Assembly: GCA_030602615.1 (NCBI GenBank)
Contig: JAUVZM010000005.1
Span: 5,094-69,093, forward strand
Length of the DNA: 64,000 nucleotides
Direction: 5' to 3'
Source of the DNA: a bacterium
Lineage (GTDB): Bacteria > Armatimonadota > Zipacnadia > Zipacnadales > Zipacnadaceae
Positions 541 to 54,443 of this stretch are shown piece by piece. The notes beneath the pieces were generated by a model that worked only from the letters and a program-made list of their open reading frames with translations, did not search any database and was not told the origin of the DNA. Each line of letters opens with the position of its first letter. Positions within the stretch are counted from its first letter, which is position 1. The position numbers and the translations under genes are program-made.

Positions 541-1338
541 TTGGGAGCACACCGCTTGAACATATTATTTATCGGTGATGTCGTCGGCCGGATCGGTCGC
601 AACGCGATAACTGACAATCTGGCCAGCCTAATTGGCGAATACGACATCGCCTTTACCATCATCAACGCAGAGAACGCGGCCGGAGGCTTCGGGTTGACAC
701 CTGACACGGCAGCACAGCTACTTGATGCCGGGGCCGACTGCCTGACTTCCGGTAACCATATCTGGGCACAAAAAGAGGCTGAACAACTGTTGGATAATGA
801 GCAGCGGGTGTTGCGTCCCGTTAACTATCCTCCAGGCGCGCCCGGCCGGGGCAGCGCAATCTATCAGACGAGCGAGGAGGTAAAGGTGGGCGTCATCAAT
901 CTACTGGGCCGTGTCTTTATGGAGCCAGTAGATTGTCCCTTCCGGTGCGCAGAGTTAGAGGTTGAGCAGATCAGCGAATCCAGCGACCTAATCGTAGTAG
1001 ACTTCCATGGCGAAGCCACCTCTGAGAAGCAGGCTATGGGCTATTTCCTGGACGGGAGAGTAACCGCTGTAATCGGTACTCACACCCACATTCAGACCGC
1101 CGATGAGAAGATCCTGGCCGGGGGCACAGCCTACATCACCGACTGCGGAATGACCGGCCCGGACGATACAGTCATCGGGATTGATAAGCAGACTATTATT
1201 GAGAAGTTTGTATCAGGCCGCCCCCAGCGCTTTGAGGTGCCCAAGTCAGGGCCTTGTCTAATATCAGGTGTAGTGATAGAATGTAATCTCCATACTGGGC
1301 TCGCCGAGACCATAGCGCGGATACATATCACTTACTAA
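541..1338 (+). CDS. ymdB: YmdB-like metallophosphoesterase (2',3'-cyclic-nucleotide phosphodiesterase family, TIGR00282-like)
   Basis: The motifs ILFIGDVVG, GNH and GTHTHIQTADE are typical of the calcineurin-like YmdB family. The gene sits immediately downstream of rny as in Bacillus and Thermus. The start is non-ATG (TTG), or possibly TTG at 556. Confidence 0.8.
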   Translation: MGAHRLNILFIGDVVGRIGRNAITDNLASLIGEYDIAFTIINAENAAGGFGLTPDTAAQLLDAGADCLTSGNHIWAQKEAEQLLDNEQRVLRPVNYPPGAPGRGSAIYQTSEEVKVGVINLLGRVFMEPVDCPFRCAELEVEQISESSDLIVVDFHGEATSEKQAMGYFLDGRVTAVIGTHTHIQTADEKILAGGTAYITDCGMTGPDDTVIGIDKQTIIEKFVSGRPQRFEVPKSGPCLISGVVIECNLHTGLAETIARIHITY

Positions 1339-1508
1339 TAGCAATGTTCCGCAACAGACTGCAGCAGGAATTGTGACCATTACGAAATATTGGTCTTGGA
1401 CTCAATATAGGTACGCCAGTAGCAACAATCGCAGAGCAATCATAGACAGCATCATTGCCATCACGACAATTCACATCGGCACAAGACATCACAAAAGGGG
1501 GAGTAGCG

Positions 1509-1772
1509 GTGAGCCTGCTCAGAGTAGGGTCTAAATCTGATCCGAACAAGGTTGCCGGAGCCATAGCTGGCACGATTAGAGAAGAGGACTCCTGTCAAGT
1601 GCAGACCATTGGCGCCGGTGCCCTCAACCAGGCCATTAAGGCCCTGGCGATTGCCCGCGGCTTCCTGGCTCCTTCGGGGATAGACCTAATCTGCTACCCC
1701 GCCTTTGTGGATGTAACTATAGACGGCAACGAGCGCACGGCTATCAAGCTATTCATAGAAGCACGGCAGTAA
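1509..1772 (+). CDS. spoVS: stage V sporulation protein S family protein
   Basis: The sequence VAGAIAGTIRE...IQTIGAGALNQAIKALAIARGFLAPSGIDLICYPAF...ERTAIKL aligns along its full length to SpoVS. The likely start is GTG at 1509, preceded by AAAGGGGGAG. The ORF-track start at 1455 lacks a ribosome-binding site. Confidence 0.8.
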   Translation: MSLLRVGSKSDPNKVAGAIAGTIREEDSCQVQTIGAGALNQAIKALAIARGFLAPSGIDLICYPAFVDVTIDGNERTAIKLFIEARQ

Positions 1773-1931
1773 CCAACAGGGCTGCGGCCGACTTAGGCAC
1801 AGCGCTACCAGTAAATAGAACCTCATTTGCGACGGACAGGAGCGGCAGCCAAGCGCGGTAGAGAGCAGGCTCGGGCTATACAATAGCCAACCACGATTCG
1901 CAATAGCAGTCAGGCCGCAGGAGCGCTAACA

Positions 1932-3620
1932 ATGAGAGCAGACCTAAGGTGGGAGAGGCGAGCTCCTCAGATTCTTACTTACGTCCTCATAGCCCTGGTT
2001 CTGATATTTCTCTACTTGATATTCATGGCGGGACGGTTCCACGGCCTTACCAATGAAAACGCCATGGACTACGCCCAAGTCGCCCAAAACCTGGCCCAGG
2101 GCGAAGGGTTTACCACCAACTTTATCAAGCCAATTAGTCTGACTCGCAATGCCAGCCTGGCTCGCCACCCGGACTTGACCTACCCCCCAATCCATCCCTG
2201 GTTTACTTCCCTGATTATGCGAGCCATGGGCACCAATGACCGGGCAGCAGCACTGGGCAGTGGAATTCCCTTCCTGCTAACTGTGCCCCTGGTGTTTGTG
2301 TTGACCGGTTGGATCTTCGACCGGCGAACTGCTTGGCTGGCGACGGCCCTGCACTTCACCAATATCGAGATCCTCCACTATGCTATCTCCGGACTGGAAG
2401 TGTGTTTGCTGTCGCTATGGCTGCTTGCACTTTTCATGGTACTGTATCAGTATGCCCAGCGCACCGACCTACAGCCAGCTCTGGCCGGCGCTGTCGGCCT
2501 GCTGATTGGTCTCATTTACCTGACTAAGTACATCTGGGTAGTGGCGCTCATCCCGGTGCTAATATACCTGTACTATTCAACCGAGGACCACACCCGAATT
2601 CGCACGCTCCTAGTGGTCGTTATAGTCTTTGCTGTAGTGATATCTCCGTGGTGTTACCGAACTTACCAGGTCAGCGGCAATCCCTTTTTCACCTGGCGCT
2701 GGTACGAGGTTACTATGAACACGCGGACAAATCCCGGCATGACCCTGTATCGCTCGCTGCCGGAAAAGCTCCCCAATCCGGTGACCTACGCCTTGATCCA
2801 CCCCATGGAGATCTATGAGAAGCTCCGTGCCGGGGTGGTCAATCTCTACAGTGTGCCAGCGCGAGTAGCTGGAGTCTACGCTACACCATTGTTCATTGTT
2901 GCCATTCTGGTGCCCTTGGGGACCGCCAACTTCGAAAGACTCAGGTATCTGCTTTACGGTGTGTTGGTGTTGATGATCGTCTCACTACTGTTCGTAGCAG
3001 CAGCTTCCCGACTGCTCTATCCGGTGGCTCCTCTTCTCACTGTAGTCGCCGCTGCCTTTTTCTTTCGGATTTTGCTGCCATTAGTTCAAGATTATGCCAG
3101 TCCGCTGCGACGGCGTTACACGGCGGTGGGGATTGGCGTACTGATGCTGCTGCATACCACCCCACTACTATTCGCGCTGACCACTCGCCGTCGTCCCGGG
3201 GACAGACCTCCGATACAGCAGAGCCAAGACTGGGCTGACCAAGCCCAAGAACTGGGCGGTTCGCCGATCATCACCGATCAGCCCTGGCTGCTGGCCTGGC
3301 ACAATGATATGACGGTGGTGTGGCTACCCAAGACCGGTGCCGACCTGAAGCGGATCCAACAGCGAGTTGGCCAGTTGCCATGGATGCTGCTGACTCCGGC
3401 AGTTACCCGCAATCAAGTCACCGAACGCACGGAGGAGTGGGCTCGACTGTGGCGACAAGCAGTGGCCCGAGAAGTCCCACCATACTACGGATTCGTGGTT
3501 GCCGAGCGCATAGGCGACGGGACGTGGGTGCTACTGCGCAAGAACCCACAGGCTGGCCCTGTTGCCCCTGCTGCGCCTGAATTGCCCGCCACAGATACAC
3601 TACAGTCATCGGAGCAGTAG
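1932..3620 (+). CDS. GT-C fold membrane glycosyltransferase (family 39/83, ArnT/PMT-like)
   Basis: About 11 predicted transmembrane helices form the N-terminal core. The first loop has the acidic motif ENAMDYAQVAQNL. A C-terminal soluble domain follows. The gene heads an operon with the zinc-ribbon protein and the exosortase. Confidence 0.6.
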   Translation: MRADLRWERRAPQILTYVLIALVLIFLYLIFMAGRFHGLTNENAMDYAQVAQNLAQGEGFTTNFIKPISLTRNASLARHPDLTYPPIHPWFTSLIMRAMGTNDRAAALGSGIPFLLTVPLVFVLTGWIFDRRTAWLATALHFTNIEILHYAISGLEVCLLSLWLLALFMVLYQYAQRTDLQPALAGAVGLLIGLIYLTKYIWVVALIPVLIYLYYSTEDHTRIRTLLVVVIVFAVVISPWCYRTYQVSGNPFFTWRWYEVTMNTRTNPGMTLYRSLPEKLPNPVTYALIHPMEIYEKLRAGVVNLYSVPARVAGVYATPLFIVAILVPLGTANFERLRYLLYGVLVLMIVSLLFVAAASRLLYPVAPLLTVVAAAFFFRILLPLVQDYASPLRRRYTAVGIGVLMLLHTTPLLFALTTRRRPGDRPPIQQSQDWADQAQELGGSPIITDQPWLLAWHNDMTVVWLPKTGADLKRIQQRVGQLPWMLLTPAVTRNQVTERTEEWARLWRQAVAREVPPYYGFVVAERIGDGTWVLLRKNPQAGPVAPAAPELPATDTLQSSEQ

Positions 3621-3623
3621 AAA

Positions 3624-4217
3624 TTGCCGACAAAGACTGACAGTCAGCAAAACCAGCAACAATGTTACCATTGTGGCGCTGAGCTGGCGCCGGGGATGCG
3701 GGTATGCCCTGTCTGCGGCCGCAAGCAAACGCGGACCTGCTATTGTGGGGCAGAGATTCCCGTAACCGCACGGACTTGTCCTGAGTGCGGTGCTGACTGG
3801 TCAGCCAGCCGGCGGGTGAGGCGCAAATCCAAATCCAAACGGATAGACTGGAAACAGTTAACTAAATCCGCAGTGATCGGCGCCCTTATCACTGCGCTGG
3901 CAGCCGCCGGGCTCAGCGCTATCGTCACAGCATTGGCCCGTCGCAGTCTGGACTACGGCCAGCCACTGCCGGCTTCATTTATCCAGCGTCTCTCACTGGC
4001 CCTGACGGCGATGTATAGAGCTGTGGCAACAGTGGCTGATCGCCTGGCCGAGCACGGTGCAGGAGCAGCGACACTGCTGGGGATATTGGTGCTGGGAGCC
4101 GGCGTCGGCGCCGTAGTCTATCTATTCCGTGAGGGCTTCTGGACTCGCTGGCGCTATCGCTCATCGAGCAAGATCAAGCGCAAACGCAGCTCCTCAACCA
4201 CGGACCAAGCAGATTAG
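3624..4217 (+). CDS. double zinc-ribbon membrane protein
   Basis: Two CxxC...CPxC zinc ribbons (CYHCGAE..CPVCG and CYCGAE..CPECG) are followed by two hydrophobic helices and a basic tail. The gene starts 3 nt after the glycosyltransferase stop and ends 2 nt before the exosortase. Confidence 0.55.
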   Translation: MPTKTDSQQNQQQCYHCGAELAPGMRVCPVCGRKQTRTCYCGAEIPVTARTCPECGADWSASRRVRRKSKSKRIDWKQLTKSAVIGALITALAAAGLSAIVTALARRSLDYGQPLPASFIQRLSLALTAMYRAVATVADRLAEHGAGAATLLGILVLGAGVGAVVYLFREGFWTRWRYRSSSKIKRKRSSSTTDQAD

Positions 4218-4219
4218 CA

Positions 4220-5110
4220 ATGGACAGTTTGCCAGCCGACCAAACCAGGACGTTGCCAAGCCCGCAGGCCGCCGACCAGGCTCCTTCTCCCATCCAGCTA
4301 ATCACAGTAGGTGCAGCGCTGCTGCTGGCCTACGGGCATTATATCCTGTGGATGGTCGAACGGTGGTGGGAAAGCCCCTACTACGGGCACGGCTTTCTGA
4401 TCCCCATTATCAGCGGTTACCTGATCTGGCGGGTGCGCGAGCGGCTGTGGCAGCTACCGCGCGAAGATTTCAATTGGGGAATAGTCATTGTGGCCGGCTC
4501 ACTGGTGGTGCATCTTGCTGCCAGCTTTGCCGACGTCCATTTTCCCTCGGGCTTTGCTCTGGTTGGAACAATCTTTGGGCTAGTGGTATGGCTGGGAGGA
4601 CGGGCATGGGGACAGATGCTGATCTTTCCGGTCGGCTTCCTGGCATTTATGGTGCCCCTGGGTCGAATCCTGGTCGAGCAGGTCGCCGGGCCTCTGCAAC
4701 TACTCTCCGCCCAACTGGGCGGCCAGGCCGTAGCAATGATTGGCGGGATAGTCAATATTGAAGGCACGCTCATCCGCACGCCGATCTACACCTTCGAGGT
4801 AGCCATTCCCTGCAGCGGACTAAAATCAACCATTGCTATGACTGCGCTGGCTGCCCTGTTTGCCTATCTGGTGGTGGCGCCGCGGTGGAAGAAGCTGGTG
4901 TTGTTCGTGTGCGCTTTTCCCGTAGCCTTGCTGGCCAACGCTGCCCGCATCTTCGTCACTGTGATTTTAGGTACAACTGTGGGGCCGGCTGTTGCTGAAG
5001 GCTTTTTTCACAGCGTTTCGGGTATTATTGTTTTTCTATTCGGCCTGACCGGTCTGTTCGTCGTGGGGAGAACCCTGGGATGTCTGCAACTGCGCGAAGA
5101 CATCTGGTAG
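4220..5110 (+). CDS. exosortase family protein (XrtA-like transpeptidase)
   Basis: The N-terminus WWESPYYGHGFLIP matches the exosortase start. The catalytic Cys motif AIPCSGLKS and Arg motif NAARIFVTV are present. There are about 8 transmembrane helices. EpsI overlaps directly downstream. Confidence 0.75.
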   Translation: MDSLPADQTRTLPSPQAADQAPSPIQLITVGAALLLAYGHYILWMVERWWESPYYGHGFLIPIISGYLIWRVRERLWQLPREDFNWGIVIVAGSLVVHLAASFADVHFPSGFALVGTIFGLVVWLGGRAWGQMLIFPVGFLAFMVPLGRILVEQVAGPLQLLSAQLGGQAVAMIGGIVNIEGTLIRTPIYTFEVAIPCSGLKSTIAMTALAALFAYLVVAPRWKKLVLFVCAFPVALLANAARIFVTVILGTTVGPAVAEGFFHSVSGIIVFLFGLTGLFVVGRTLGCLQLREDIW

Positions 5111-43804: not shown

Positions 43805-43948
43805 CCAAGTCCGTTGACAGCCTCCTGGTAGTCTGTTAGCATATTAGGAGTCTCTCTCAGGGTAGGATAAGCTGGCAGATGGCTGGGAGCAATCCGCTTC
43901 CACTCTTCTCCGAAACACCTTTGATCTCTACGCAGAGGCCGACTATCC

Positions 43949-46900
43949 GTGGCTGATGATACCATCCGCATTCGGGGCGCCGCCCAACACAATTTGCGTA
44001 AGGTTGACCTCGATCTGCCGAAGAACCGCCTTATTGTTTTCACTGGCATCAGCGGCTCGGGCAAGTCATCCCTGGCCTTTGATACCTTGTTTGCCGAGGG
44101 GCAACGGCTGTATGTGGAGTCGCTTTCCACCTATGCCCGGCAGTTTCTCCAGGAGATGCCCCGCCCGCAGGTGGATAGCATCGAGGGGCTGGCCCCGGCT
44201 GTAGCCATTGACCAGGCCAAACGCAGCCATAATCCTCGCTCGACAGTAGCCACTATCACCGAGATATACGATCACCTGCGGGTGCTGTTCGCCGCCATCG
44301 GCACGCTGCATTGCCCTAAGTGTGGGCGCGAAGTAGGCGCCCAAACTCGGGAAAGTGTGATACAGCGTATCGTCGGCCTGGCCAGCGAGAGCACCATGCA
44401 GATTCTGGCACCGCTGGAGCGTGGGCGCAAGGGCCAGTTCAAGGAACTCTTCGCCGACCTGCGGCAAGCAGGCTACGCTCATGCCCGCGTGGATGGCCGG
44501 TTCATCCACCTTACTGAACCCCCGGAACTGGACCGCTACCGCCGTCATGACGTTGAGGTGGTGGTTGACCGGCTGGCGGCTGGTGCACACTCCCCCAGCC
44601 GCATAGGCGAGGCCATCGACATTGCCTTTGATCTGGGTGAGGGTAATCTCATCGCAGTGCCCGAAGACGGTGAGGATATCCTGTTTAGCCGCAATTTCGC
44701 CTGCCCCGACTGTCAGATCAGCATCCCCGAGCCTACCCACACCTCGTTTTCGTTCAACAGCCCCCGCGGTATGTGCCCGACCTGCGAGGGCCTCGGTGAG
44801 GCCCGCACCATTGACCCGGAACTGCTGGTCGCTCATCCCGACAGGTCGCTGGCCTCCGGGGCGATACCGCTACTGAGGTCGCTGCGCAGCGCCCGCCGCC
44901 GCCACTGGTATCAGGGCGTCGCCGACCATTACGGATTCACCCTCGACACGCCCTGGAAGGAGCTAACTGAGAAGCAACGCCACGCCTTACTGTATGGTTC
45001 CGGCGAGGAACTGATTGAGTTTTACTATCGCCATGCCCGCCACGGCTGGGAGTGGCGCCACGCTGATGTATGGGAGGGGATAATTCCCGGGCTGACGCAC
45101 CGGTACAAACGGGCTGAGTCCCGCCTGCTGCGCCAGCGTTTCGAGCAGGTCATCCGCCAGCAGCCGTGCCCCGACTGCCACGGTCAGCGGCTGCGCCCCG
45201 AGAGCCTGGCAGTGACCATCGGAGGGAAGTCAATCGCCGCCATTACCGGCCTCACTGTAGATCAGGCCGGCGAGTTCTTTGCCAAGCTAACACTCAACGA
45301 AAACGACGCACTCATAGCCGAAGACGCTCTTAAGGAGATCACGGAGCGGCTGTCGTTTCTGAAAGAGGTGGGTCTGCACTACCTGACGCTGGATCGCACT
45401 GCACCGACCCTATCCAGCGGCGAAGCCCAGCGCATCCGCCTGGCCGGACAGGTGGGCAGCGGCCTGACTGATTGCCTCTATGTCCTGGATGAGCCCAGCA
45501 TCGGCCTGCACTACCGTGACCAGGGGCGCCTGCTGGAGGCACTCAAACGACTACGGGATCTGGATAACACGGTGATCGTCGCTGAGCACGACGAGCAGAC
45601 CATCACCAATGCTGACTATGTTGTGGACTTTGGTCCGGGAGCAGGTGCCCAGGGCGGCCAGATTGTCAGCGTCGGCACTGTAACAGAAATAAAGAACGAT
45701 TTAGACTCGCTGACCGGCGACTATCTGGCCGGACGGCGCAGCATCCCGATTCCCAGTCAGCGTCGTGACGGCAACGGGGCCAGCCTGACACTGTGCGGAG
45801 CCCAGCACAATAACCTGAAGGATATAGATGTGAAATTCCCGCTGGGCCGGTTTGTTTGCATCACCGGCGTGTCAGGCTCAGGCAAGAGTTCGCTGATTGC
45901 CGACACCCTCCATCCGATTCTGGCCGCCGAGCTACACAGCGCCGAGACTGAGCCGGGGGAGTTTGATCATCTCGAAGGTATTGAGAACGTGCGTAAGGTG
46001 GTGATGATTGACCAGTCACCGATCGGCCGCACCCCGCGAAGCTGCCCGGCCACCTACACCAAAGTCTTCGACGATATCCGCCGGCTGTACGCGCAACTGC
46101 CTGCCTCGCGGGAACGCGGCTATACGCCTGGCCGATTCAGCTTCAACGTTAAGGAGGGCCGCTGCCCCCACTGCGACGGCTACGGCGCCGTCAAGCTACA
46201 ATCGGATTTCCTGGCTGACGTGTGGGTGCAATGTGAAGAGTGTCATGGACAGCGGTTCGACCGGGAAACGCTAACCATTCAGTACAAGGGCGCCGGCATC
46301 GCTGAGGTGCTGGATATGGAGGTCAGCCGGGCGCTGGAGCACTTCGCTAATGTTCCCAAAATCAAGCGGGTGCTGCAGGTCCTGGCCGATGTCGGGCTGG
46401 GCTACATCAAGCTGGGACAGTCGGCAACTACCCTCTCCGGCGGCGAGGCCCAGCGAGTCAAGCTGGCCCGCGAGCTGGCCCGTCCCCAGCAGGGCGACTG
46501 CCTGTATCTGCTTGATGAACCTACCACCGGCCTGCACTTTGAGGATGTCCGCCATCTGCTGGCCCTGCTGGGACGGATGGTGGACGGCGGTAATACTGTA
46601 ATCATCATCGAGCACCATCCTGACATCATCAAGACAGCCGATTATGTAATTGATCTGGGGCCGGAGGGTGGCGAGGAAGGCGGCGAGGTGGTCGCGACAG
46701 GTACCCCGGAGCAGGTCGCCAAATGCCGCCGCTCGCACACCGGTCAACTGCTCGACCAGATACTCAACGGTGCCGACGGGAGCCAGCCAATCCCACGAGT
46801 TGGCACTCAGCGGCGCAGTAGCCAGCCCAAATGTGAGGCCATCCAAGTGTGGGGCGCCCGCGAGCATAATCTCAAGAATATCAGCGCCAGGGTCCCCCGC

Positions 46901-49900
46901 CGGCAGATGGTCGTCTTCTCGGGTGTATCAGGCTCGGGCAAGACCTCCCTGGCAGTAGACACCATCTACGCCGAAGGTCAGCGGCGCTTTGTCGAATCGC
47001 TATCTTCCTATGCCCGCCAATTTGTCAGCGAGATGCCCAAGCCCAAGGTAGACCGGGTCCGGGGCCTATCGCCGGCGGTAGCTATTGACCCGCGCAACAC
47101 GGTCCAGACGCCGCGCTCAACTGTCGGCACAATGACCGAGATATACGACTACCTGCGGGTGCTGTACGCCCGGCTGGGTGTTCCCCACTGCCCGGAGTGC
47201 GGCAGCAACCTGGGTGCAGCCTCCGTTGATGATATTGTTGACCGCCTGCTGAGCAAGCTGCACCGCCGCGAGATTATGATCCTGGCGCCTCTCCAGCCTA
47301 AAGCCACCGAAGAATACCAGGAACTGCTCGAACGGCTACAGCGGCAGGGCTGGGTGCGCATTCGCCTGGACGGACAAATCCAGCGGCTGCCGTTTGCCTC
47401 TGCGCCGGACCGGCGCAGCCACCACAAACTTGAACTGGTGGTAGACCGCCTGCGCGTGGCAGAAAAGCACAGGTCGCGCCTCGCTGAAGCCGTGGAGACC
47501 GCCCTTGCCGTCGGAGGGGGGCAAGTAATAGCAGCACCTACGGCTGAGACGGCCGCACCAGACGAAGAGCTGACTTTTTCCAGCGAGCTTTCCTGCCCTA
47601 ACTGCGGCACCGCCTACCAGGAATTAGAGCCGCGCAGCTATTCGTTCAACCATGCCCAGGGCTGGTGCCCGGTTTGCGAAGGGCTCGGCACTCAACCAGG
47701 TGTAGAACCGGCGGCGCTGGTGCCGGACGAGAGCAAGTCAATCCGCGAGGGCGCCGTCAGTCTGTGGGGGCCATTGGAACGGGACAGCCTGCTGTATAAG
47801 CTGCTTGCCGCGGTCGCGGAAGCCGCCGGGTTCAGTCTCAATCAGCCCTTTGCCGAGTTGACGTTCGCCCAGCGGAATCTTGTCTTTTCCGGCGGTGATG
47901 AGCAATTCACCGTTGACGGGATGACTGTGCGATTCAAGGGATTAGTGGAAGGTATCCGGTCGGCAGTGCAGTTGGGCGATAAGATGCGGCGCAGATTTGC
48001 CCGCGCCTGGACCGATGTGCCCTGCCACGCCTGCGGTGGAGGACGGCTGCGTCCCGAGCCCGCCGCCACTCGCTTTCGTACTCACACACTGCCTGAGCTG
48101 TGCCGCTACTCACTGGAAGAGGCACTCGGCTTTTTCGAGCAACTCGACCTATCATCCACTGAAGAGCAGCGCGCCGGAGAGATTCCTGAAGAGGTGCTCA
48201 GCCGGCTGCGGCTGCTGGTGGATATCGGCCTCGATTATCTCACATTGGATCGGCCAGCAGCGTCACTTTCCGGCGGGGAGGCCCAGCGTATCAAGCTGGC
48301 CAGCCAGCTCCGATCCGGACTCACCGGCGTACTTTATGTGCTCGACGAGCCGACTGTCGGCGTTCATCCCCGCGACAATGAGCGGATGCTGGCGGCGCTG
48401 GATTCGCTGCGGGATTTGGGCAACAGCCTCATCATCGTCGAGCACGACCCCCAGACCATCAACCGGGCTGACTATGTTATGGACTTCGGACCGGGCGCCG
48501 GCCGCGAGGGTGGCGAGATAATCGCCACTGGCACCCAACGAGGCATCAGGCGGCGCAACTCGCCGACCGGCCACTACCTGGCCGGCAAGCTGGCTGTCCC
48601 TGTTCCTCAACCCCGGCGGTGGCCCAATGACGGCAACAATAGTGAACTGAAGATTCTGGGCGCGGCCCATCATAATCTCAAAGATGTTGATGTAACCGTC
48701 CCGCTGGGCTGCCTGGTTTGCGTCACCGGCCCGTCTGGCTCCGGCAAAAGCTCGCTTATCGAGGAGATCCTTTATCCGGAGCTGGCCTGGCGGCTGCAGG
48801 GCAAAGCGACTACGCCAGGGCGGCATCGGGACATCATCGGCAGCGAAGCTGTTGACAGGGTGATAAATATCGACCAGTCGCCGATCGGCCAGTCGCCGCG
48901 CTCCAACGCCGCTACTTACACCGGCATCTTTGACCTGATCCGCGAGTTCTATGCCAGCCTGCCGGAGGCGCGCATGCGCGGCTATACCTCCGGCTGGTTT
49001 AGCTTTAACAATGCGGGAGGGCGTTGCGAACACTGCCAGGGGATGGGGACAATCCACGTGGAGATGCACTTTCTGCCCGATGTCTGGGTGACCTGCGAGG
49101 AGTGTCAGGGGCGGCGGTACAAGCCGGAGATACTGGAGATCGAATACAAACACCGCAATATCTCTGATATTCTAGAAACAACTGCCGCTGAAGCATTGGA
49201 GCTGTTTGCTGACTTTCCCAGGTTGCACCGGATGCTTAGCGTAATGTGCCAGGTCGGGCTGGGCTACCTTCCGCTGGGGCAAGCTGCGCCCACCCTGTCG
49301 GGAGGCGAGGCCCAGCGGGTCAAGCTGGTCCGCGAACTGGCCCGGCCCCGCCGCGGTCATACTATCTATCTGCTGGATGAGCCGACCACTGGCCTGCATC
49401 CCGCCGACATCATCAAGCTGCTATGCGTGCTAAATCGGTTGGTCGAACAGGGCAATACAATGGTGGTCATTGAGCACAACCTTGACGTCATAAAGACTGC
49501 TGACTACGTCATTGACCTGGGGTCGGGAGGTGGCGACCGGGGCGGGGAGGTGTGCGCTGCCGGTACTCCCGAGCAAGTTGCCCAAAGCGATTCACCTACT
49601 GCTATTTACCTGAAGAAGGCGCTGGCAGCAAGTCCCACGGTCGGTCGCCAGGAGCTAACCGCACCGCTGCTGGAGACCAAACCCGGCGGCAAGGTGGCGG
49701 CAATGCGCTCGGAGGTCCAGGCGCCCTGGCAGCGCGACCCGGCAAAGTGGCATCAGGAGCAGCGCACAACCGCCGACGGCGAGCAGCGCGCCTGGGATGT
49801 CGAAGCGCTCACTGTGCTCGAGGAAGCTATCAGCCAGCTAGCCGACCCACCCGACGGAGACTGGGAGCATCCCCGCTACATCAAGTATCAGCTCGATGGC

Positions 49901-50215
49901 TCCAGCGACTGGTTCGTGCGGGCGCGCACCGACAAGAAATGGTACCTGGACCTGCAACTGCGCACCGAAAAGGGACTTCTTGACGAAGTGCAACTGGCCC
50001 AGCGCCTTGCTCTGCCCACCTGGAACGAGATTGAAGACCTGCCCAAGTACGGCGAGGGCGCTCGCGTGCGGGTACACACCCGTGCTGCTGACTACGACAG
50101 GATTAGCCTGCAGATCTTCTCGGCCGATGACCTGCGTCAGCCACAGTTTGCCAGCTTTCTGGCAACTTGCTACCAGGGCTACCGGCGCATGATCGGATGG
50201 AAGGAGGGCGGCTGA
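43949..50215 (+). CDS. uvrA: tandem-fused double UvrA (two complete UvrA modules in one 2088-aa chain) with a ~190-aa uncharacterised C-terminal domain
   Basis: Module 1 (~aa 1-955) and module 2 (~aa 960-1890) each carry two ABC ATPase domains: Walker A GISGSGKSS / GVSGSGKSS and GVSGSGKTS / GPSGSGKSS, plus LSGGEAQR signatures. Each also has zinc-finger CxxC pairs and a UvrB-binding-like region (ILAPL...VVVDR). The frame is continuous with no internal stop. The ~190-aa C-terminal tail has no recognised family. Confidence 0.8.
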   Translation: MADDTIRIRGAAQHNLRKVDLDLPKNRLIVFTGISGSGKSSLAFDTLFAEGQRLYVESLSTYARQFLQEMPRPQVDSIEGLAPAVAIDQAKRSHNPRSTVATITEIYDHLRVLFAAIGTLHCPKCGREVGAQTRESVIQRIVGLASESTMQILAPLERGRKGQFKELFADLRQAGYAHARVDGRFIHLTEPPELDRYRRHDVEVVVDRLAAGAHSPSRIGEAIDIAFDLGEGNLIAVPEDGEDILFSRNFACPDCQISIPEPTHTSFSFNSPRGMCPTCEGLGEARTIDPELLVAHPDRSLASGAIPLLRSLRSARRRHWYQGVADHYGFTLDTPWKELTEKQRHALLYGSGEELIEFYYRHARHGWEWRHADVWEGIIPGLTHRYKRAESRLLRQRFEQVIRQQPCPDCHGQRLRPESLAVTIGGKSIAAITGLTVDQAGEFFAKLTLNENDALIAEDALKEITERLSFLKEVGLHYLTLDRTAPTLSSGEAQRIRLAGQVGSGLTDCLYVLDEPSIGLHYRDQGRLLEALKRLRDLDNTVIVAEHDEQTITNADYVVDFGPGAGAQGGQIVSVGTVTEIKNDLDSLTGDYLAGRRSIPIPSQRRDGNGASLTLCGAQHNNLKDIDVKFPLGRFVCITGVSGSGKSSLIADTLHPILAAELHSAETEPGEFDHLEGIENVRKVVMIDQSPIGRTPRSCPATYTKVFDDIRRLYAQLPASRERGYTPGRFSFNVKEGRCPHCDGYGAVKLQSDFLADVWVQCEECHGQRFDRETLTIQYKGAGIAEVLDMEVSRALEHFANVPKIKRVLQVLADVGLGYIKLGQSATTLSGGEAQRVKLARELARPQQGDCLYLLDEPTTGLHFEDVRHLLALLGRMVDGGNTVIIIEHHPDIIKTADYVIDLGPEGGEEGGEVVATGTPEQVAKCRRSHTGQLLDQILNGADGSQPIPRVGTQRRSSQPKCEAIQVWGAREHNLKNISARVPRRQMVVFSGVSGSGKTSLAVDTIYAEGQRRFVESLSSYARQFVSEMPKPKVDRVRGLSPAVAIDPRNTVQTPRSTVGTMTEIYDYLRVLYARLGVPHCPECGSNLGAASVDDIVDRLLSKLHRREIMILAPLQPKATEEYQELLERLQRQGWVRIRLDGQIQRLPFASAPDRRSHHKLELVVDRLRVAEKHRSRLAEAVETALAVGGGQVIAAPTAETAAPDEELTFSSELSCPNCGTAYQELEPRSYSFNHAQGWCPVCEGLGTQPGVEPAALVPDESKSIREGAVSLWGPLERDSLLYKLLAAVAEAAGFSLNQPFAELTFAQRNLVFSGGDEQFTVDGMTVRFKGLVEGIRSAVQLGDKMRRRFARAWTDVPCHACGGGRLRPEPAATRFRTHTLPELCRYSLEEALGFFEQLDLSSTEEQRAGEIPEEVLSRLRLLVDIGLDYLTLDRPAASLSGGEAQRIKLASQLRSGLTGVLYVLDEPTVGVHPRDNERMLAALDSLRDLGNSLIIVEHDPQTINRADYVMDFGPGAGREGGEIIATGTQRGIRRRNSPTGHYLAGKLAVPVPQPRRWPNDGNNSELKILGAAHHNLKDVDVTVPLGCLVCVTGPSGSGKSSLIEEILYPELAWRLQGKATTPGRHRDIIGSEAVDRVINIDQSPIGQSPRSNAATYTGIFDLIREFYASLPEARMRGYTSGWFSFNNAGGRCEHCQGMGTIHVEMHFLPDVWVTCEECQGRRYKPEILEIEYKHRNISDILETTAAEALELFADFPRLHRMLSVMCQVGLGYLPLGQAAPTLSGGEAQRVKLVRELARPRRGHTIYLLDEPTTGLHPADIIKLLCVLNRLVEQGNTMVVIEHNLDVIKTADYVIDLGSGGGDRGGEVCAAGTPEQVAQSDSPTAIYLKKALAASPTVGRQELTAPLLETKPGGKVAAMRSEVQAPWQRDPAKWHQEQRTTADGEQRAWDVEALTVLEEAISQLADPPDGDWEHPRYIKYQLDGSSDWFVRARTDKKWYLDLQLRTEKGLLDEVQLAQRLALPTWNEIEDLPKYGEGARVRVHTRAADYDRISLQIFSADDLRQPQFASFLATCYQGYRRMIGWKEGG

Positions 50216-50847
50216 TGCAGTTTCTCTCCCGGCTACTCTTTCAGATCACCGCCGACTGCCCACGGGTCTCCGATGCCGTGAATATGGCACCGGAAGACTG
50301 GCCGGACGGGCTACTGCCACCACTGGGTGAACTGGACAGCGAGCAACTATTTGCGCGCGTGTACGTAAGTTGGAATGAGAGCGGGCTCTACATAGCCAGT
50401 AACATTCCCCGTGGCGGTCGGCTGGTCGGCAATCGCCAGCGGCCCGACTCGGGGGACTGCCTGCAACTGTGGATTGACACTAGCCCTGAAGAAGGTCGGC
50501 GCCGGGCTGACAGGCACTGCTACCACTTCATTATCCTGCCCCAGGTGCCCGGCGGCGACAAGCCCGTGGCGTGGCAGCAGCATATCCGCCGTGCTCGCGG
50601 CCGCCCGCCGCTGTGCGATCCCCAGCAGATACAGGCCATGGTCAAGCAAGAAGAGGAAGCCTATCAGATGCTGGTGGGCCTGCCCACCACGGAGTGTCTC
50701 GATTTCACGCCCCAGGCCGGGACGGAGGTCGGCTTCAACTATCTGCTCAACGATACCAGCCTCGGTCGGCAGTTGTGGAGTTGTCCTCACCACGCAGATT
50801 ACGCAAAAGACCCCAGTTGCTGGGGCCGGTTGCGCCTGGTTGAGTAA
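50215..50847 (+). CDS. CBM9-like / DOMON-like domain protein, translationally coupled to the double UvrA (no signal peptide)
   Basis: The ATG overlaps the UvrA stop (TGATG) and has an AAGGAGGG RBS. The motifs ARVYVSWNESGLYIASNI...DCLQLWIDT and FNYLLND resemble the CBM9-like family. Confidence 0.45.
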   Translation: MQFLSRLLFQITADCPRVSDAVNMAPEDWPDGLLPPLGELDSEQLFARVYVSWNESGLYIASNIPRGGRLVGNRQRPDSGDCLQLWIDTSPEEGRRRADRHCYHFIILPQVPGGDKPVAWQQHIRRARGRPPLCDPQQIQAMVKQEEEAYQMLVGLPTTECLDFTPQAGTEVGFNYLLNDTSLGRQLWSCPHHADYAKDPSCWGRLRLVE

Positions 50848-51082
50848 AATTGATAAACAGATTTCGCGGAAAACCCGCTTTTTGAAAAAAGCCGGTTTTC
50901 CGCACCTTTCCGACAAAACTTTACAAGTGGAACAGTACGACAGATAGCGTACTGTTATCCCTCACAGGGGTCGAATACTTTCCACTAAGGGGCCGCTTGC
51001 AAACGGCTTTGACGCGGCAAGACATCTTTGTATTTCGGTTCGTGAATAATCCGCGATAGTCGAATAAGAGCTGCCAGCCATC

Positions 51083-52975: not shown

Positions 52976-53812
52976 TTAGTGCTTGGTAATTACCAGGCCC
53001 ACAACAGGCCGATCCAGGTCGGAATAGCCGAAGTAGCCCAGCGCGATCCATCTCTGCCTCTCACTGTATTCCTCGGCACTTCGTCCCAGTCCACTCAGGG
53101 CCAGGCCGGCATTCACTTGCATCCCATCATATTCCGTTACCAGGGTCAACCCACCAGTCACCGGTATTGATAGTCCCCCGAAAGGATTGCTGTCAAACCG
53201 CCCATCCCCCCAGCCGATGGTCAAATAGCTATCACCGAATAGATCAAAAGGTCGGGTGGCTACACCGTAAATTGAACGTGCCCCGTAAGGATCGCCGGCG
53301 TAGTCGTCGCGCTGGTTAAGGATATCCTGGACGCCAACGGCCAGGGCCCAACCCCGTTGGCCGCCGTCAGCCAGTTGGTACTGGAAGTTGTAGGCTTCCT
53401 CGATGTGGCTGCCGGTCATCATCCAGGATCCGTACATTCCATGGCCGGGCCTTCCCGCACCCAGCCCAATGAATGCCGTGCCGTTGACATCGTCCCCACT
53501 AAAGCCGATTTCCACGCTGCCGGTGTTGCTGCCGCTGTTGCAGCCTATCACCCAGTTATCGGCGCTCGGGGTGTAGGCCACCGGGACATTCTGCTGCAGC
53601 GCGCCGTCGAAGCCGACCTGGCCGGCGGGGCTGACTCCAAACATATTACCCGGCAGGGTCGAGGAGTGACGGAACTGGTAGAATTCGTTCCAGTCGGTGT
53701 CGGCCAGGACGGGGCTGACCAGCATAAATACAAGCAGCACAACTGCCGCCAGTAAGTAGCACTGTACCGGTGTCCTATCACTGCCGTAGTATGCCGGTGA
53801 CAATGTTTTCAT
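52976..53812 (-). CDS. hypothetical secreted protein, Gly/aromatic-rich (possible outer-membrane beta-barrel)
   Basis: A signal peptide is present (LLAAVVLLVFMLVSPVLA). There are many G/Y/F/W and alternating hydrophobics. No family was assigned. Confidence 0.4.
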   Translation of the reverse strand: MKTLSPAYYGSDRTPVQCYLLAAVVLLVFMLVSPVLADTDWNEFYQFRHSSTLPGNMFGVSPAGQVGFDGALQQNVPVAYTPSADNWVIGCNSGSNTGSVEIGFSGDDVNGTAFIGLGAGRPGHGMYGSWMMTGSHIEEAYNFQYQLADGGQRGWALAVGVQDILNQRDDYAGDPYGARSIYGVATRPFDLFGDSYLTIGWGDGRFDSNPFGGLSIPVTGGLTLVTEYDGMQVNAGLALSGLGRSAEEYSERQRWIALGYFGYSDLDRPVVGLVITKH

Positions 53813-53906: not shown

Positions 53907-54443
53907 TCACTGCGATAATGTCTCCTCCAACCGCGCCAGCCGCTGTTCCAGACGAGCCTGACGCAGGGCGTTGGTCAAATCGCCGCGGGTACGCTCGATC
54001 ATCCCGCGCAGCGCGTCGGAGCGCCCGCGCAGGCCATAGCTGATGGCTTTAGGATAGTCAAAGCCCATAATGGTATGATATATTTCGTTCATAGCTTCCA
54101 GATATTCCTCGGCCTGTTCCGGGTGGTCTTCGCGGATCAGGTCAAGGACGTGGCGGCGGAATTCCCCGCCTACTTCAGCCAGGCCATTGAGCCACGGCGC
54201 ATAATCAATTTCAAGCTCTTCGGGAGTGGGCAAAGGCTGTCCGCTTATCACTGCACAGGTGATAGCCGCCTCAGCGTATTCCTTTTCAGCATCGCCCACA
54301 AATCCGCCGTAGCGCAGGGCGGGCTGGTCGCTGAACGCGCCCAACATCTGGGCAGTGGCCTGGCGAGTCTCCTCCAGAAGCTGCTCGGCCTGCTGGGGTT
54401 GGTTTCTGTGGATGCTCTTGATGCAACTGGAAGCCAGCCGCAC
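53907..54443 (-). CDS. hypothetical helical protein
   Basis: The 178-aa ORF has coding-like composition and no confident family assignment. Confidence 0.35.
   Translation of the reverse strand: MRLASSCIKSIHRNQPQQAEQLLEETRQATAQMLGAFSDQPALRYGGFVGDAEKEYAEAAITCAVISGQPLPTPEELEIDYAPWLNGLAEVGGEFRRHVLDLIREDHPEQAEEYLEAMNEIYHTIMGFDYPKAISYGLRGRSDALRGMIERTRGDLTNALRQARLEQRLARLEETLSQ

What the first reader, a model, noticed from the sequence alone, without database searches (positions are those of the whole stretch)
49600..50847. Novel C-terminal domain on the double UvrA, plus a translationally coupled CBM9-like cytoplasmic partner
The last ~190 aa of the double UvrA (...QAPWQRDPAKWHQEQ...YQGYRRMIGWKEGG) match no domain I recognise. 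The next gene starts at the overlapping TGATG with a strong RBS. It encodes a signal-peptide-less protein with CBM9/DOMON-like motifs (VYVSWNESGLYIA...LQLWIDT, FNYLLND). This family is usually extracellular and carbohydrate-binding. Tight coupling suggests a two-protein complex of unknown function, possibly a lesion, ligand or polymer recognition module feeding a UvrA ATPase.
Basis: inference. Interest (0 to 1): 0.65.

Follow-up and report, generated by a model that had tools for sequence, protein, structure and literature searches.

The report
Double UvrA with extra tail and partner
A fused double copy of the DNA-damage sensor UvrA carries an uncharacterised extra domain and is followed, almost always within a few bases, by a small cytoplasmic protein with a sugar-binding-module fold; this pairing recurs in more than 20 environmental bacterial genomes and points to an undescribed accessory factor of excision repair.

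Summary
Window 43949-50215 (+) encodes a 2088-aa double UvrA: two complete class I halves with four intact ATPase sites. Its last ~190 aa match no Pfam or NCBIfam model. A 210-aa gene (50215-50847) starts in a TGATG overlap behind an AGGAGG site. It has no signal peptide and is a remote CBM9/DOMON-superfamily homologue (family profile vs PDB 1i82, E=3.6e-9).

The interpretation needs correction.
- **Tail.** It is not unique to this protein. It is a recurrent, un-annotated ~165-aa domain (signature PW..DG..WH) with 153 clusters at 50% identity. Where upstream sequence is present it mostly sits on UvrA C-termini; named members are from Armatimonadota and Planctomycetota. It often occurs in tandem, and rarely on NucS-like nucleases. 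The AF2 model is confident (pLDDT 90.7), with no significant structural match in PDB or BFVD.
- **Partner.** One of the two CBM9 sugar-clamp tryptophans is lost. Its family splits into a UvrA-linked clade and a clade in chlamydial CHP03076-GcvH-like operons.
- **Linkage.** The partner lies directly downstream of uvrA in 22 distinct loci, 20 of them within -8 to +8 nt. These include a tail-less UvrA and a two-tail UvrA, so the link is to UvrA rather than to the tail.

Physical complex formation and function remain inferred.

The parts
43814..43842 (+). Promoter-like site (TTGACA-17-TAGCAT, TG extended) in the 145-nt gap between the PfkB-family gene and uvrA
   Evidence: Consensus scan, 10 of 12 matches. 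This is a weak pattern match only.
43949..50215 (+). Double UvrA gene (2088 aa plus stop): two full class I UvrA units, a linker and the C-terminal tail domain
   Evidence: ORF list. NCBIfam PRK00349 2512.7 bits with two stretches; Pfam UvrA_inter x2 and UvrA_DNA-bind x2. Four Walker A and four Walker B motifs.
43949..46783 (+). First UvrA unit (about aa 1-945)
   Evidence: PRK00349 match to aa 3-940. 64-94% identical in orthologues.
46844..49630 (+). Second UvrA unit (about aa 966-1894)
   Evidence: Second PRK00349 stretch. Walker A at aa 992 and 1594. 59-93% identical in orthologues.
49631..49693 (+). Linker between the UvrA core and the tail domain (about aa 1895-1915), lower model confidence
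   Evidence: pLDDT 67-72 for the first ~30 residues of the tail model. Poorly conserved.
49694..50194 (+). Tail domain ('PW..DG..WH' domain, about aa 1916-2082): N-terminal Trp/His-rich arm, then alpha-beta4-alpha-beta2-alpha
   Evidence: Family profile match. Exhaustive HMMER search: 153 clusters. W40 and H41 invariant (tail numbering). AF2 pLDDT 90.7, pTM 0.80.
50202..50207 (+). Shine-Dalgarno AGGAGG for the partner gene, lying inside the last UvrA codons
   Evidence: Sequence. Purine-rich equivalents in orthologues.
50213..50217 (+). TGATG stop/start overlap (UvrA TGA, partner ATG)
   Evidence: Sequence. Junction distance is -8 to +8 nt in 20 of 22 UvrA-linked loci.
50215..50847 (+). Partner gene: 210-aa cytoplasmic CBM9/DOMON-superfamily beta-sandwich protein (UvrA-linked clade), family motif FCxHF
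   Evidence: Homologues at 54-90% identity. Profiles vs PDB 1i82 E=2.9e-7 and 3.6e-9. Foldseek top hits are CBM9 structures. No signal peptide.
50866..50903 (.). Strong hairpin between the convergent partner and ADH-like genes: likely terminator closing the uvrA-partner operon
   Evidence: MFE -23.5 kcal/mol, z = -5.0, 0 of 200 shuffles fold as well.

Best explanation
This is a two-gene uvrA operon for a lineage-specific version of the nucleotide-excision-repair damage sensor.

Shown:
- A single chain carries two complete class I UvrA units, a covalent pseudo-dimer of the kind already noted in Planctomycetes.
- An extra ~165-aa C-terminal alpha/beta domain follows the second unit.
- A 210-aa cytoplasmic CBM9/DOMON-fold protein is encoded from a start codon that overlaps the UvrA stop codon.
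- This arrangement is conserved across Armatimonadota MAGs and further unclassified metagenome contigs.

Inferred:
- Translational coupling delivers the small protein in fixed proportion to UvrA, and it acts as an accessory subunit or cofactor of UvrA. It binds the UvrA body or its substrate rather than strictly the tail.
- The tail is an added recognition module, most likely directed at DNA or at a DNA-bound partner. The same domain is otherwise found only behind NucS-type PD-(D/E)xK nuclease domains that resemble the candidate phage-defence protein PDC-S11.
- The partner keeps the CBM9 scaffold but has rebuilt the ligand site (half of the aromatic clamp is lost; a family-specific Cys-x-His motif is present). 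It therefore probably binds something other than a polysaccharide end.
For: - **UvrA identity and integrity:**. Double UvrA is already reported in Planctomycetes (PMC8567305).
- **Tail family:** 153 clusters at 50% identity. 59 have UvrA sequence upstream, 80 start at or near the tail itself (mostly short proteins, probably contig fragments), and 14 have other upstream sequence. One or two tandem copies occur. Three non-UvrA members carry nuclease-like N-termini; two of them (P0083, P0152) match NucS_C and PADLOC PDC-S11.
- **Tail model:** confident. The only weak fold resemblances are to T3SS chaperones and the T4 MotA DNA-binding 'double wing'.
- **Partner fold:** a CBM9-superfamily homologue.
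- **Gene linkage:** every member of the core UvrA-linked clade examined lies directly downstream of a tail-bearing double UvrA, while the flanking genes differ. More distant members follow a tail-less UvrA, a two-tail UvrA and the UvrA of L048.
- **Junctions:** -8 to +8 nt in 20 of 22 loci.
- **Phylogeny:** UvrA-linked partners form one clade in an NJ tree.
- **Co-inheritance:** tail and partner diverge in step with the UvrA core across orthologues. Core half 2 runs 93 to 59%, tail 88 to 36%, partner 90 to 41%.
- **Operon boundaries:** promoter-like site upstream and a strong hairpin downstream.
Against: - No direct evidence of physical interaction. Co-folding could not be run.
- The partner model is poor (pLDDT 47).
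- Neither the tail nor the partner is basic overall (pI about 5.3-5.4 in the window), which does not favour simple DNA-backbone binding.
- Two basal relatives of the UvrA-linked clade (L029, L033) are not next to uvrA.
- Three two-tail UvrAs have no adjacent partner.
- The sister clade works in a different, non-repair context, the CHP03076-GcvH-like operon.
- The named members of the core linked clade all come from one phylum (Armatimonadota), so part of the conservation is shared ancestry.
Confidence: 0.5

Rival explanations
1. The tail is the specific docking platform for the partner: tail plus partner form a heterodimeric module hanging off UvrA.
For: In the core clade (about 20 loci) a single-copy tail and the partner always occur together. 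The core-clade partners carry conserved Arg-rich loops (NR[RQ]RP, IRRARGRP) that are absent from the GcvH-linked clade, and the window tail is acidic. Weak T3SS-chaperone-like fold resemblance would suit a protein-binding role.
Against: L030 has the partner overlapping the stop of a double UvrA with no tail. L015, L045 and L047 have two tails and no adjacent partner. L046 has two tails plus a partner. Tail and partner therefore occur independently.
Confidence: 0.25
2. The partner is functionally unrelated to repair. It is merely co-transcribed with uvrA (operon hitch-hiking or shared stress regulation) and acts elsewhere, as its GcvH-linked relatives do.
For: The sister clade is embedded in CHP03076-GcvH-like operons. 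L029 and L033 relatives sit beside unrelated genes. One UvrA-linked member is fused to a fragment of 5-formyltetrahydrofolate cyclo-ligase.
Against: Start/stop overlap or a gap of at most 8 nt is maintained in 20 of 22 loci, across partners only 30-40% identical and with unrelated flanks. The linkage also appears with tail-less and two-tail UvrAs of the basal branch. Hitch-hiking rarely survives that much divergence.
Confidence: 0.2
3. The partner is a small-ligand sensor or adduct reader. It uses the CBM9/DOMON pocket to bind a sugar-like, heme or other cofactor ligand (for example ribosylated or glycosylated DNA adducts or abasic sugars) and directs or regulates UvrA.
For: The CBM9/DOMON superfamily binds sugar chain ends or heme. 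The CBM9 scaffold motifs are kept, and a family-wide conserved Cys102/His104 motif plus Tyr196 at the Trp175 position suggest a retained but re-tooled pocket.
Against: The Trp71 equivalent is a variable non-aromatic residue. No ligand can be inferred. The pocket could not be mapped because the model is poor and the central strands did not align to 1i82.
Confidence: 0.15
4. The partner is an ordinary exported carbohydrate-binding module whose adjacency to uvrA is accidental.
For: Sequence and fold similarity to CBM9.
Against: No signal peptide or TM segment. The conserved N-terminus is part of the fold. No glycoside hydrolase is attached. The clamp is incomplete. The recurrent tight linkage to uvrA also argues against it.
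Confidence: 0.03

Closest known systems
Class I UvrA, and the fused double UvrA of Planctomycetes and Chlamydia (NCBIfam PRK00349; PRK00635; PMC8567305)
   Same: Both halves have the full class I set: two ABC ATPase modules, the UvrB-binding domain, the insertion (DNA-binding) domain and zinc modules. The two uvrA units are fused into one ~2000-aa chain, as reported for Planctomycetes.
   Different: The protein scores far below the cut-off of the chlamydial double-UvrA equivalog model (1349 vs 3054 bits). It carries an extra ~165-aa C-terminal domain that no curated model covers, and it is followed by a coupled partner gene. Neither feature is mentioned in the paper found.
Family 9 carbohydrate-binding module (TmCBM9-2, PDB 1i82; CkCBM9.3, 7nwn) within the DOMON-like superfamily
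   Same: Collinear profile match over both halves of the module (E=3.6e-9). Shared motifs D-S-V-E-x-F-I-D, G-F-N-x-x-x-N-D and D-P-S-x-x-G-x-L-x-L. CBM9 structures are the top Foldseek hits, followed by DOMON-type heme subunits.
   Different: It is a stand-alone cytoplasmic protein, not a module of a secreted xylanase. Clamp residue Trp71 is not conserved and Trp175 is replaced by Tyr. It has its own FCxHF motif. The single sequence is below the Pfam gathering score.
Chlamydial 'near_not_gcvH' operon (TIGR03076 / PF27779, with a GcvH-like protein)
   Same: A sister clade of the partner family (20-32% identity, same length, also lacking a signal peptide by inspection of the aligned N-termini) is encoded between the TIGR03076-family protein and the GcvH-like protein.
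   Different: There is no UvrA nearby. The Arg-rich loops of the UvrA-linked clade are replaced by acidic ones. The clade is separate in the NJ tree. The TIGR03076-family proteins contain no tail-like domain.
Type III secretion class I chaperones (SycH/SycE) and the T4 MotA C-terminal 'double wing' DNA-binding domain
   Same: Similar order of secondary-structure elements (alpha, beta strands, alpha, beta strands, alpha). These are the best, though weak, Foldseek matches to the tail model (E=0.014-0.08, TM up to 0.58 on the target).
   Different: No match reaches significance, and there is no sequence similarity. The N-terminal PW..DG..WH arm has no counterpart. This is a resemblance only.
NucS-like nuclease proteins resembling PADLOC candidate PDC-S11
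   Same: P0083 and P0152 combine a PD-(D/E)xK NucS_C-like nuclease domain (matching PDC-S11 profile positions ~1-200) with a C-terminal tail-type domain carrying the PW..DG..WH signature.
   Different: The C-terminal part of the PDC-S11 profiles is not matched, so equivalence of the sensor domains is unproven. There is no ABC ATPase. The function of PDC-S11 is itself unknown.

Membership tests
UvrA class I (excinuclease ABC subunit A) | Whole-protein score above the curated cut-off of the equivalog model | tested here: met
   NF001503 2512.7 bits vs 1147; TIGR00630 2438.4 vs 729.8; two stretches each.
UvrA class I (excinuclease ABC subunit A) | Two ABC ATPase modules per unit with Walker A, Walker B and signature motifs | tested here: met
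   Walker A at aa 33, 640, 992 and 1594. Walker B at 510, 852, 1462 and 1806. LSGGE signature at 829, 1440 and 1783; the first-module signature was not matched by the pattern used.
UvrA class I (excinuclease ABC subunit A) | UvrB-binding domain and insertion (DNA-binding) domain present (absent in class II UvrA) | tested here: met
   PF17760 and PF17755 each matched twice.
Chlamydial-type double UvrA (NF001885 / PRK00635) | Score above the equivalog cut-off | tested here: not met
   1349.3 bits vs cut-off 3054. It is a double UvrA but not this equivalog.
CBM9 (Pfam PF06452, CAZy family 9) | Sequence match above the Pfam gathering score | tested here: not met
   Window partner 15.8 bits vs 23.4. 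Some homologues carry a precomputed PF06452 hit.
CBM9 (Pfam PF06452, CAZy family 9) | Homology to solved CBM9 modules over the whole fold | tested here: met
   Profiles vs 1i82 E=2.9e-7 and 3.6e-9, vs 7nwn 3.1e-4, collinear in both halves. Foldseek top hits are 1i82, 7nwn and 7nwo at E about 1e-6, on a low-confidence model.
CBM9 (Pfam PF06452, CAZy family 9) | Aromatic clamp for the reducing-end sugar (Trp71 and Trp175 in TmCBM9-2; Tyr89 and Trp191 in CkCBM9.3) | tested here: not met
   Trp71 aligns with partner position 78 (D/A/S/T/Q). Trp175 aligns with Tyr196 (Phe in one homologue).
CBM9 (Pfam PF06452, CAZy family 9) | Extracytoplasmic module appended to a glycoside hydrolase | tested here: not met
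   Stand-alone 210-aa protein with no signal peptide. Its neighbours are uvrA and an ADH-like gene.
Heme-binding DOMON (cellobiose dehydrogenase cytochrome, EbdC, NxrC) | Axial heme ligands (Met/His or Met/Lys) in the beta-sandwich pocket | not testable with these tools
   Only weak Foldseek similarity (7b04 E=1.3e-3, 1pl3 and 2ivf E about 0.1) on a poor model. Conserved Cys102/His104 are noted but not mapped.
Type III secretion chaperone-like / MotA double-wing fold (for the tail) | Significant structural superposition | tested here: inconclusive
DUF5655 (PF18899) (for the tail) | Profile match | tested here: not met
   One of 37 family members hit at E=0.023. This was not reproduced on the nuclease-linked members or the window tail at E<=10.

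The most novel reading that the evidence does not exclude
The CBM9-fold partner is a true new subunit of the bacterial excision-repair damage sensor. It would read a sugar-like or otherwise non-canonical DNA feature (for example ribosylated or glycosylated bases, or abasic deoxyribose) or a small-molecule signal. The PW..DG..WH tail would be a new DNA- or lesion-recognition fold shared with defence-type nucleases. Together they would extend the substrate range or control of UvrA in Armatimonadota and Planctomycetota.
Probability: 0.12. Interest if true: 0.85.

Novelty: new variant of a known kind. Interest (0 to 1): 0.6.

Why it matters
To my knowledge, UvrA has been treated as self-sufficient for damage search, with UvrB and Mfd as its main known partners. 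A conserved, translationally coupled small protein and an extra conserved domain on UvrA would mean that some phyla run a modified damage sensor. Two uncharacterised protein families gain a concrete, testable context: a cytoplasmic branch of the otherwise extracytoplasmic CBM9/DOMON superfamily, and a confidently modelled ~165-aa domain that matches no model in the Pfam or NCBIfam copies used and has no significant structural neighbour in PDB or BFVD. The tail family includes UvrA of a cultured planctomycete (Planctomyces sp. SH-PL14), so part of this is experimentally reachable.

Tried and rejected
1. **Partner substitutes for a missing second tail copy (single tail goes with partner, double tail with none).** Supported at first by L015 and L017. 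Rejected by L046 (two tails plus an overlapping partner) and L030 (no tail plus an overlapping partner).
2. **The CHP03076 protein upstream of the GcvH-linked clade contains a tail-like domain, which would unify both contexts.** Rejected: no match with the tail HMM at full sensitivity.
3. **The tail is a DUF5655 member.** Only one weak hit (E=0.023), not reproducible.
4. **Net charge as a sign of DNA binding.** Tail and partner are neutral to acidic, so this gives no support.
5. **Partner structure prediction.** With 12 sequences the model was poor (pLDDT 47), so the ligand pocket could not be mapped.
7. **Metagenome scan seeded with the tail alignment.** The partner alignment was used instead.
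8. **Literature searches.** Searches for a UvrA C-terminal extension, UvrA plus DOMON, and DUF5655 found no description of the tail or the partner.
9. **PADLOC.** Neither the tail nor the partner matches a defence model.
Full report
**1. What is in the window**

- ORF 43949..50215 (+) encodes 2088 aa.
- NCBIfam's UvrA equivalog models are passed more than twofold, with two matched stretches.
- Pfam finds the UvrB-binding domain (PF17760) and the insertion/DNA-binding domain (PF17755) twice each.
- All four Walker A and Walker B motifs and the CxxC zinc modules are present.
- It is therefore a head-to-tail fusion of two complete class I UvrA units. Such a fusion has been reported for Planctomycetes (PMC8567305). 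It does not reach the cut-off of the chlamydial double-UvrA equivalog (1349 vs 3054 bits).
- UvrA homology ends near aa 1894. The last 194 aa (49631-50212) match no Pfam or NCBIfam model.
- The next gene starts at 50215 in a TGATG overlap, 7 nt behind AGGAGG, and encodes 210 aa.
- A promoter-like site lies in the gap upstream of uvrA.
- A strong hairpin (-23.5 kcal/mol, z = -5) follows the partner stop, before a convergent gene.
- The unit therefore looks like a two-gene operon.

**2. The tail**

Distribution:
- An exhaustive HMMER search of 1.84 billion cluster representatives found 153 proteins at E<=0.001, 72 of them at E<=1e-10.
- Classified by what precedes the domain, 59 have UvrA sequence upstream, 80 start at or near the tail (mostly short proteins, probably contig fragments) and 14 have something else.
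- Full-length examples include double UvrAs of 2343 and 2334 aa and a 1381-aa UvrA with a single UvrA unit that may be the second half of a split double UvrA.
- Many carry two tandem copies of the domain.
- Source names place two-tail versions in Planctomycetota, including the cultured Planctomyces sp. SH-PL14. The window's lineage is Armatimonadota (Ca. Zipacnadia, Armatimonadia).

Non-UvrA members:
- P0083 and P0152 have a NucS_C-type PD-(D/E)xK nuclease domain in front of the tail-type domain.
- P0163 has an N-terminal region that looks nuclease-like by eye but matched no Pfam, NCBIfam or PADLOC model.
- The nuclease parts of P0083 and P0152 match PADLOC candidate PDC-S11.

Sequence and structure:
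- The family signature is PW..DG..WH. The Trp-His pair is invariant in a 37-sequence alignment.
- With that alignment AlphaFold2 gives pLDDT 90.7 and pTM 0.80: an N-terminal arm, then alpha-beta4-alpha-beta2-alpha.
- Foldseek finds nothing significant in PDB or BFVD. The best weak resemblances are T3SS chaperones (E=0.014) and the T4 MotA C-terminal 'double wing' DNA-binding domain (TM 0.58 on the target).
- A profile search of PDB sequences finds nothing.
- A suspected link to DUF5655 did not hold.

The tail is therefore real, conserved and uncharacterised, but it is not peculiar to this protein.

**3. The partner**

- The first search found eleven homologues at 54-90% identity. A profile search extended the family to 42 clusters.
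- The family profile hits TmCBM9-2 (1i82) at E=3.6e-9 and CkCBM9.3 (7nwn) at 3.1e-4, collinear over both halves.
- Even the poor AF2 model (pLDDT 47) retrieves the three CBM9 structures first. DOMON-type subunits and domains (NxrC, dopamine beta-hydroxylase, cellobiose dehydrogenase cytochrome, EbdC) follow, interspersed with other hits.
- There is no signal peptide or membrane segment, and the conserved N-terminus belongs to the fold.
- The CBM9 sugar clamp is Trp71/Trp175 (PMC8280721). In the alignment Trp71 falls on a variable non-aromatic position and Trp175 on Tyr196. Classical reducing-end sugar binding is therefore not expected.
- Family-wide conserved residues include the CBM9-like GD...IDT, GFxY and PxxWG motifs plus a family-specific FCxHF.

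**4. Gene neighbourhood**

- From the partner side, every core-clade member examined lies directly downstream of a double UvrA ending in one tail copy. This covers the genome collection, the metagenome scan and exact look-ups.
- The loci are the window, L001, L003, L005, L008-L010, L012, L013, L016, L017, L020-L026, L028 and L048.
- The flanks differ: an ADH-like gene, a 295-aa unknown protein or CN_hydrolase downstream; PfkB, UxaE or GH123 plus cupin upstream.
- Two more divergent relatives are also coupled to uvrA. L030 follows a tail-less double UvrA with a TGATG overlap. L046 follows a two-tail UvrA with a 4-nt overlap.
- The stop-to-start distance is -8 to +8 nt in 20 of 22 loci; the exceptions are +31 and +348.
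- Orthologue comparison shows tail and partner diverging faster than the UvrA core, but in step with it.
- In an NJ tree the UvrA-linked partners form one clade.
- Counter-examples exist. Two basal relatives (L029, L033) are not beside uvrA. Three two-tail UvrAs have no adjacent partner.

**5. The sister clade**

- Relatives at 20-32% identity from Chlamydiota, Aerophobetes and others are encoded between a 700-800-aa TIGR03076 / PF27779 protein ('chlamydial GcvH-like protein upstream region protein') and a GcvH-like protein. In one locus the full glycine-cleavage genes are present.
- The TIGR03076-family proteins have no tail-like domain.
- The fold family is thus used in at least two unrelated cytoplasmic contexts.

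**6. Interpretation**

Shown: the architecture, the two new families, the fold assignments at the levels stated, and the recurrent tight gene coupling.

Inferred: the partner is made in proportion to UvrA and works with it. The tail adds a recognition function, most plausibly DNA-directed given its only other fusion partners (nucleases). The overall neutral to acidic charge and the chaperone-like topology keep a protein-binding role open.

The idea that the tail is the partner's dock is weakened by their independent occurrence. Pure hitch-hiking is weakened by the persistence of the overlap across deep divergence. I found no publication describing either element.

**7. Verdict**

This is a real and conserved elaboration of a known system: a new variant of the UvrA damage sensor. 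It involves two uncharacterised families and a testable hypothesis of a new accessory factor. The function is unproven.

Noticed in passing
L018 5888-8998; L019 5584-10155; L014 256-3584; L032, L034-L036, L038-L042, L044: A sister clade of the partner family (about 210-220 aa, cytoplasmic CBM9-like) sits in a conserved three-gene arrangement: TIGR03076 / PF27779 'near_not_gcvH' protein, CBM9-like protein, GcvH-like protein. It occurs in Chlamydiota, Aerophobetes and other metagenomic lineages. L019 also has GcvT and GcvP next to it.
   Followed up: partly
L048 145-1059 (P0168): A UvrA-linked partner homologue (37% identity) is called as one 304-aa protein fused to the C-terminal part of a 5-formyltetrahydrofolate cyclo-ligase (PF01812). 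A UvrA tail end lies upstream with a 4-nt overlap. It could be a real fusion or an assembly or gene-calling artefact on a 2.1-kb contig.
   Followed up: partly
P0083, P0152, P0163 (proteins): The tail-type domain (PW..DG..WH) also occurs at the C-terminus of ~360-aa proteins. In P0083 and P0152 the N-terminus is a NucS_C-like PD-(D/E)xK nuclease that matches PADLOC candidate defence family PDC-S11 over profile positions ~1-200 only. P0163 matched no library model.
   Followed up: partly
P0018 (Planctomyces sp. SH-PL14, WP_075091369.1); L046 3-707 with 738-4883: Some planctomycete UvrA entries look split or truncated. P0018 (1096 aa) starts in the middle of a UvrA unit. In L046 the 1381-aa UvrA is preceded by a 234-aa call whose translation is Arg-rich nonsense, which suggests a frameshifted first half of a double UvrA.
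   Followed up: no
L026 and L027, 7652-8001: In one lineage (partner 41% identical) about 348 nt separate the UvrA stop from the partner start, unlike the overlaps elsewhere. The content of this spacer was not examined.
   Followed up: no
window 50866-50903: A near-perfect 38-nt hairpin (GGAAAACCCGCUUUUU...AAAAAAGCCGGUUUUCC, -23.5 kcal/mol, z = -5) lies between the convergent partner and ADH-like genes. It is flanked by A/U runs on both sides, so it is possibly a bidirectional terminator.
   Followed up: partly
window 52976-53812 (-) and 53907-54443 (-): Two conserved ORFs (278 aa with a hydrophobic N-terminal segment; 178 aa) have no Pfam hit in the syntenic MAG locus L001. They are unrelated to the finding as far as seen.
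   Followed up: no
PMC8567305: In Tuwongella immobilis all UvrABCD subunits fractionated with the SDS-soluble fraction, whereas the E. coli homologues are in the Tris-soluble fraction. Whether the planctomycete tail domains contribute to this was not examined.
   Followed up: no
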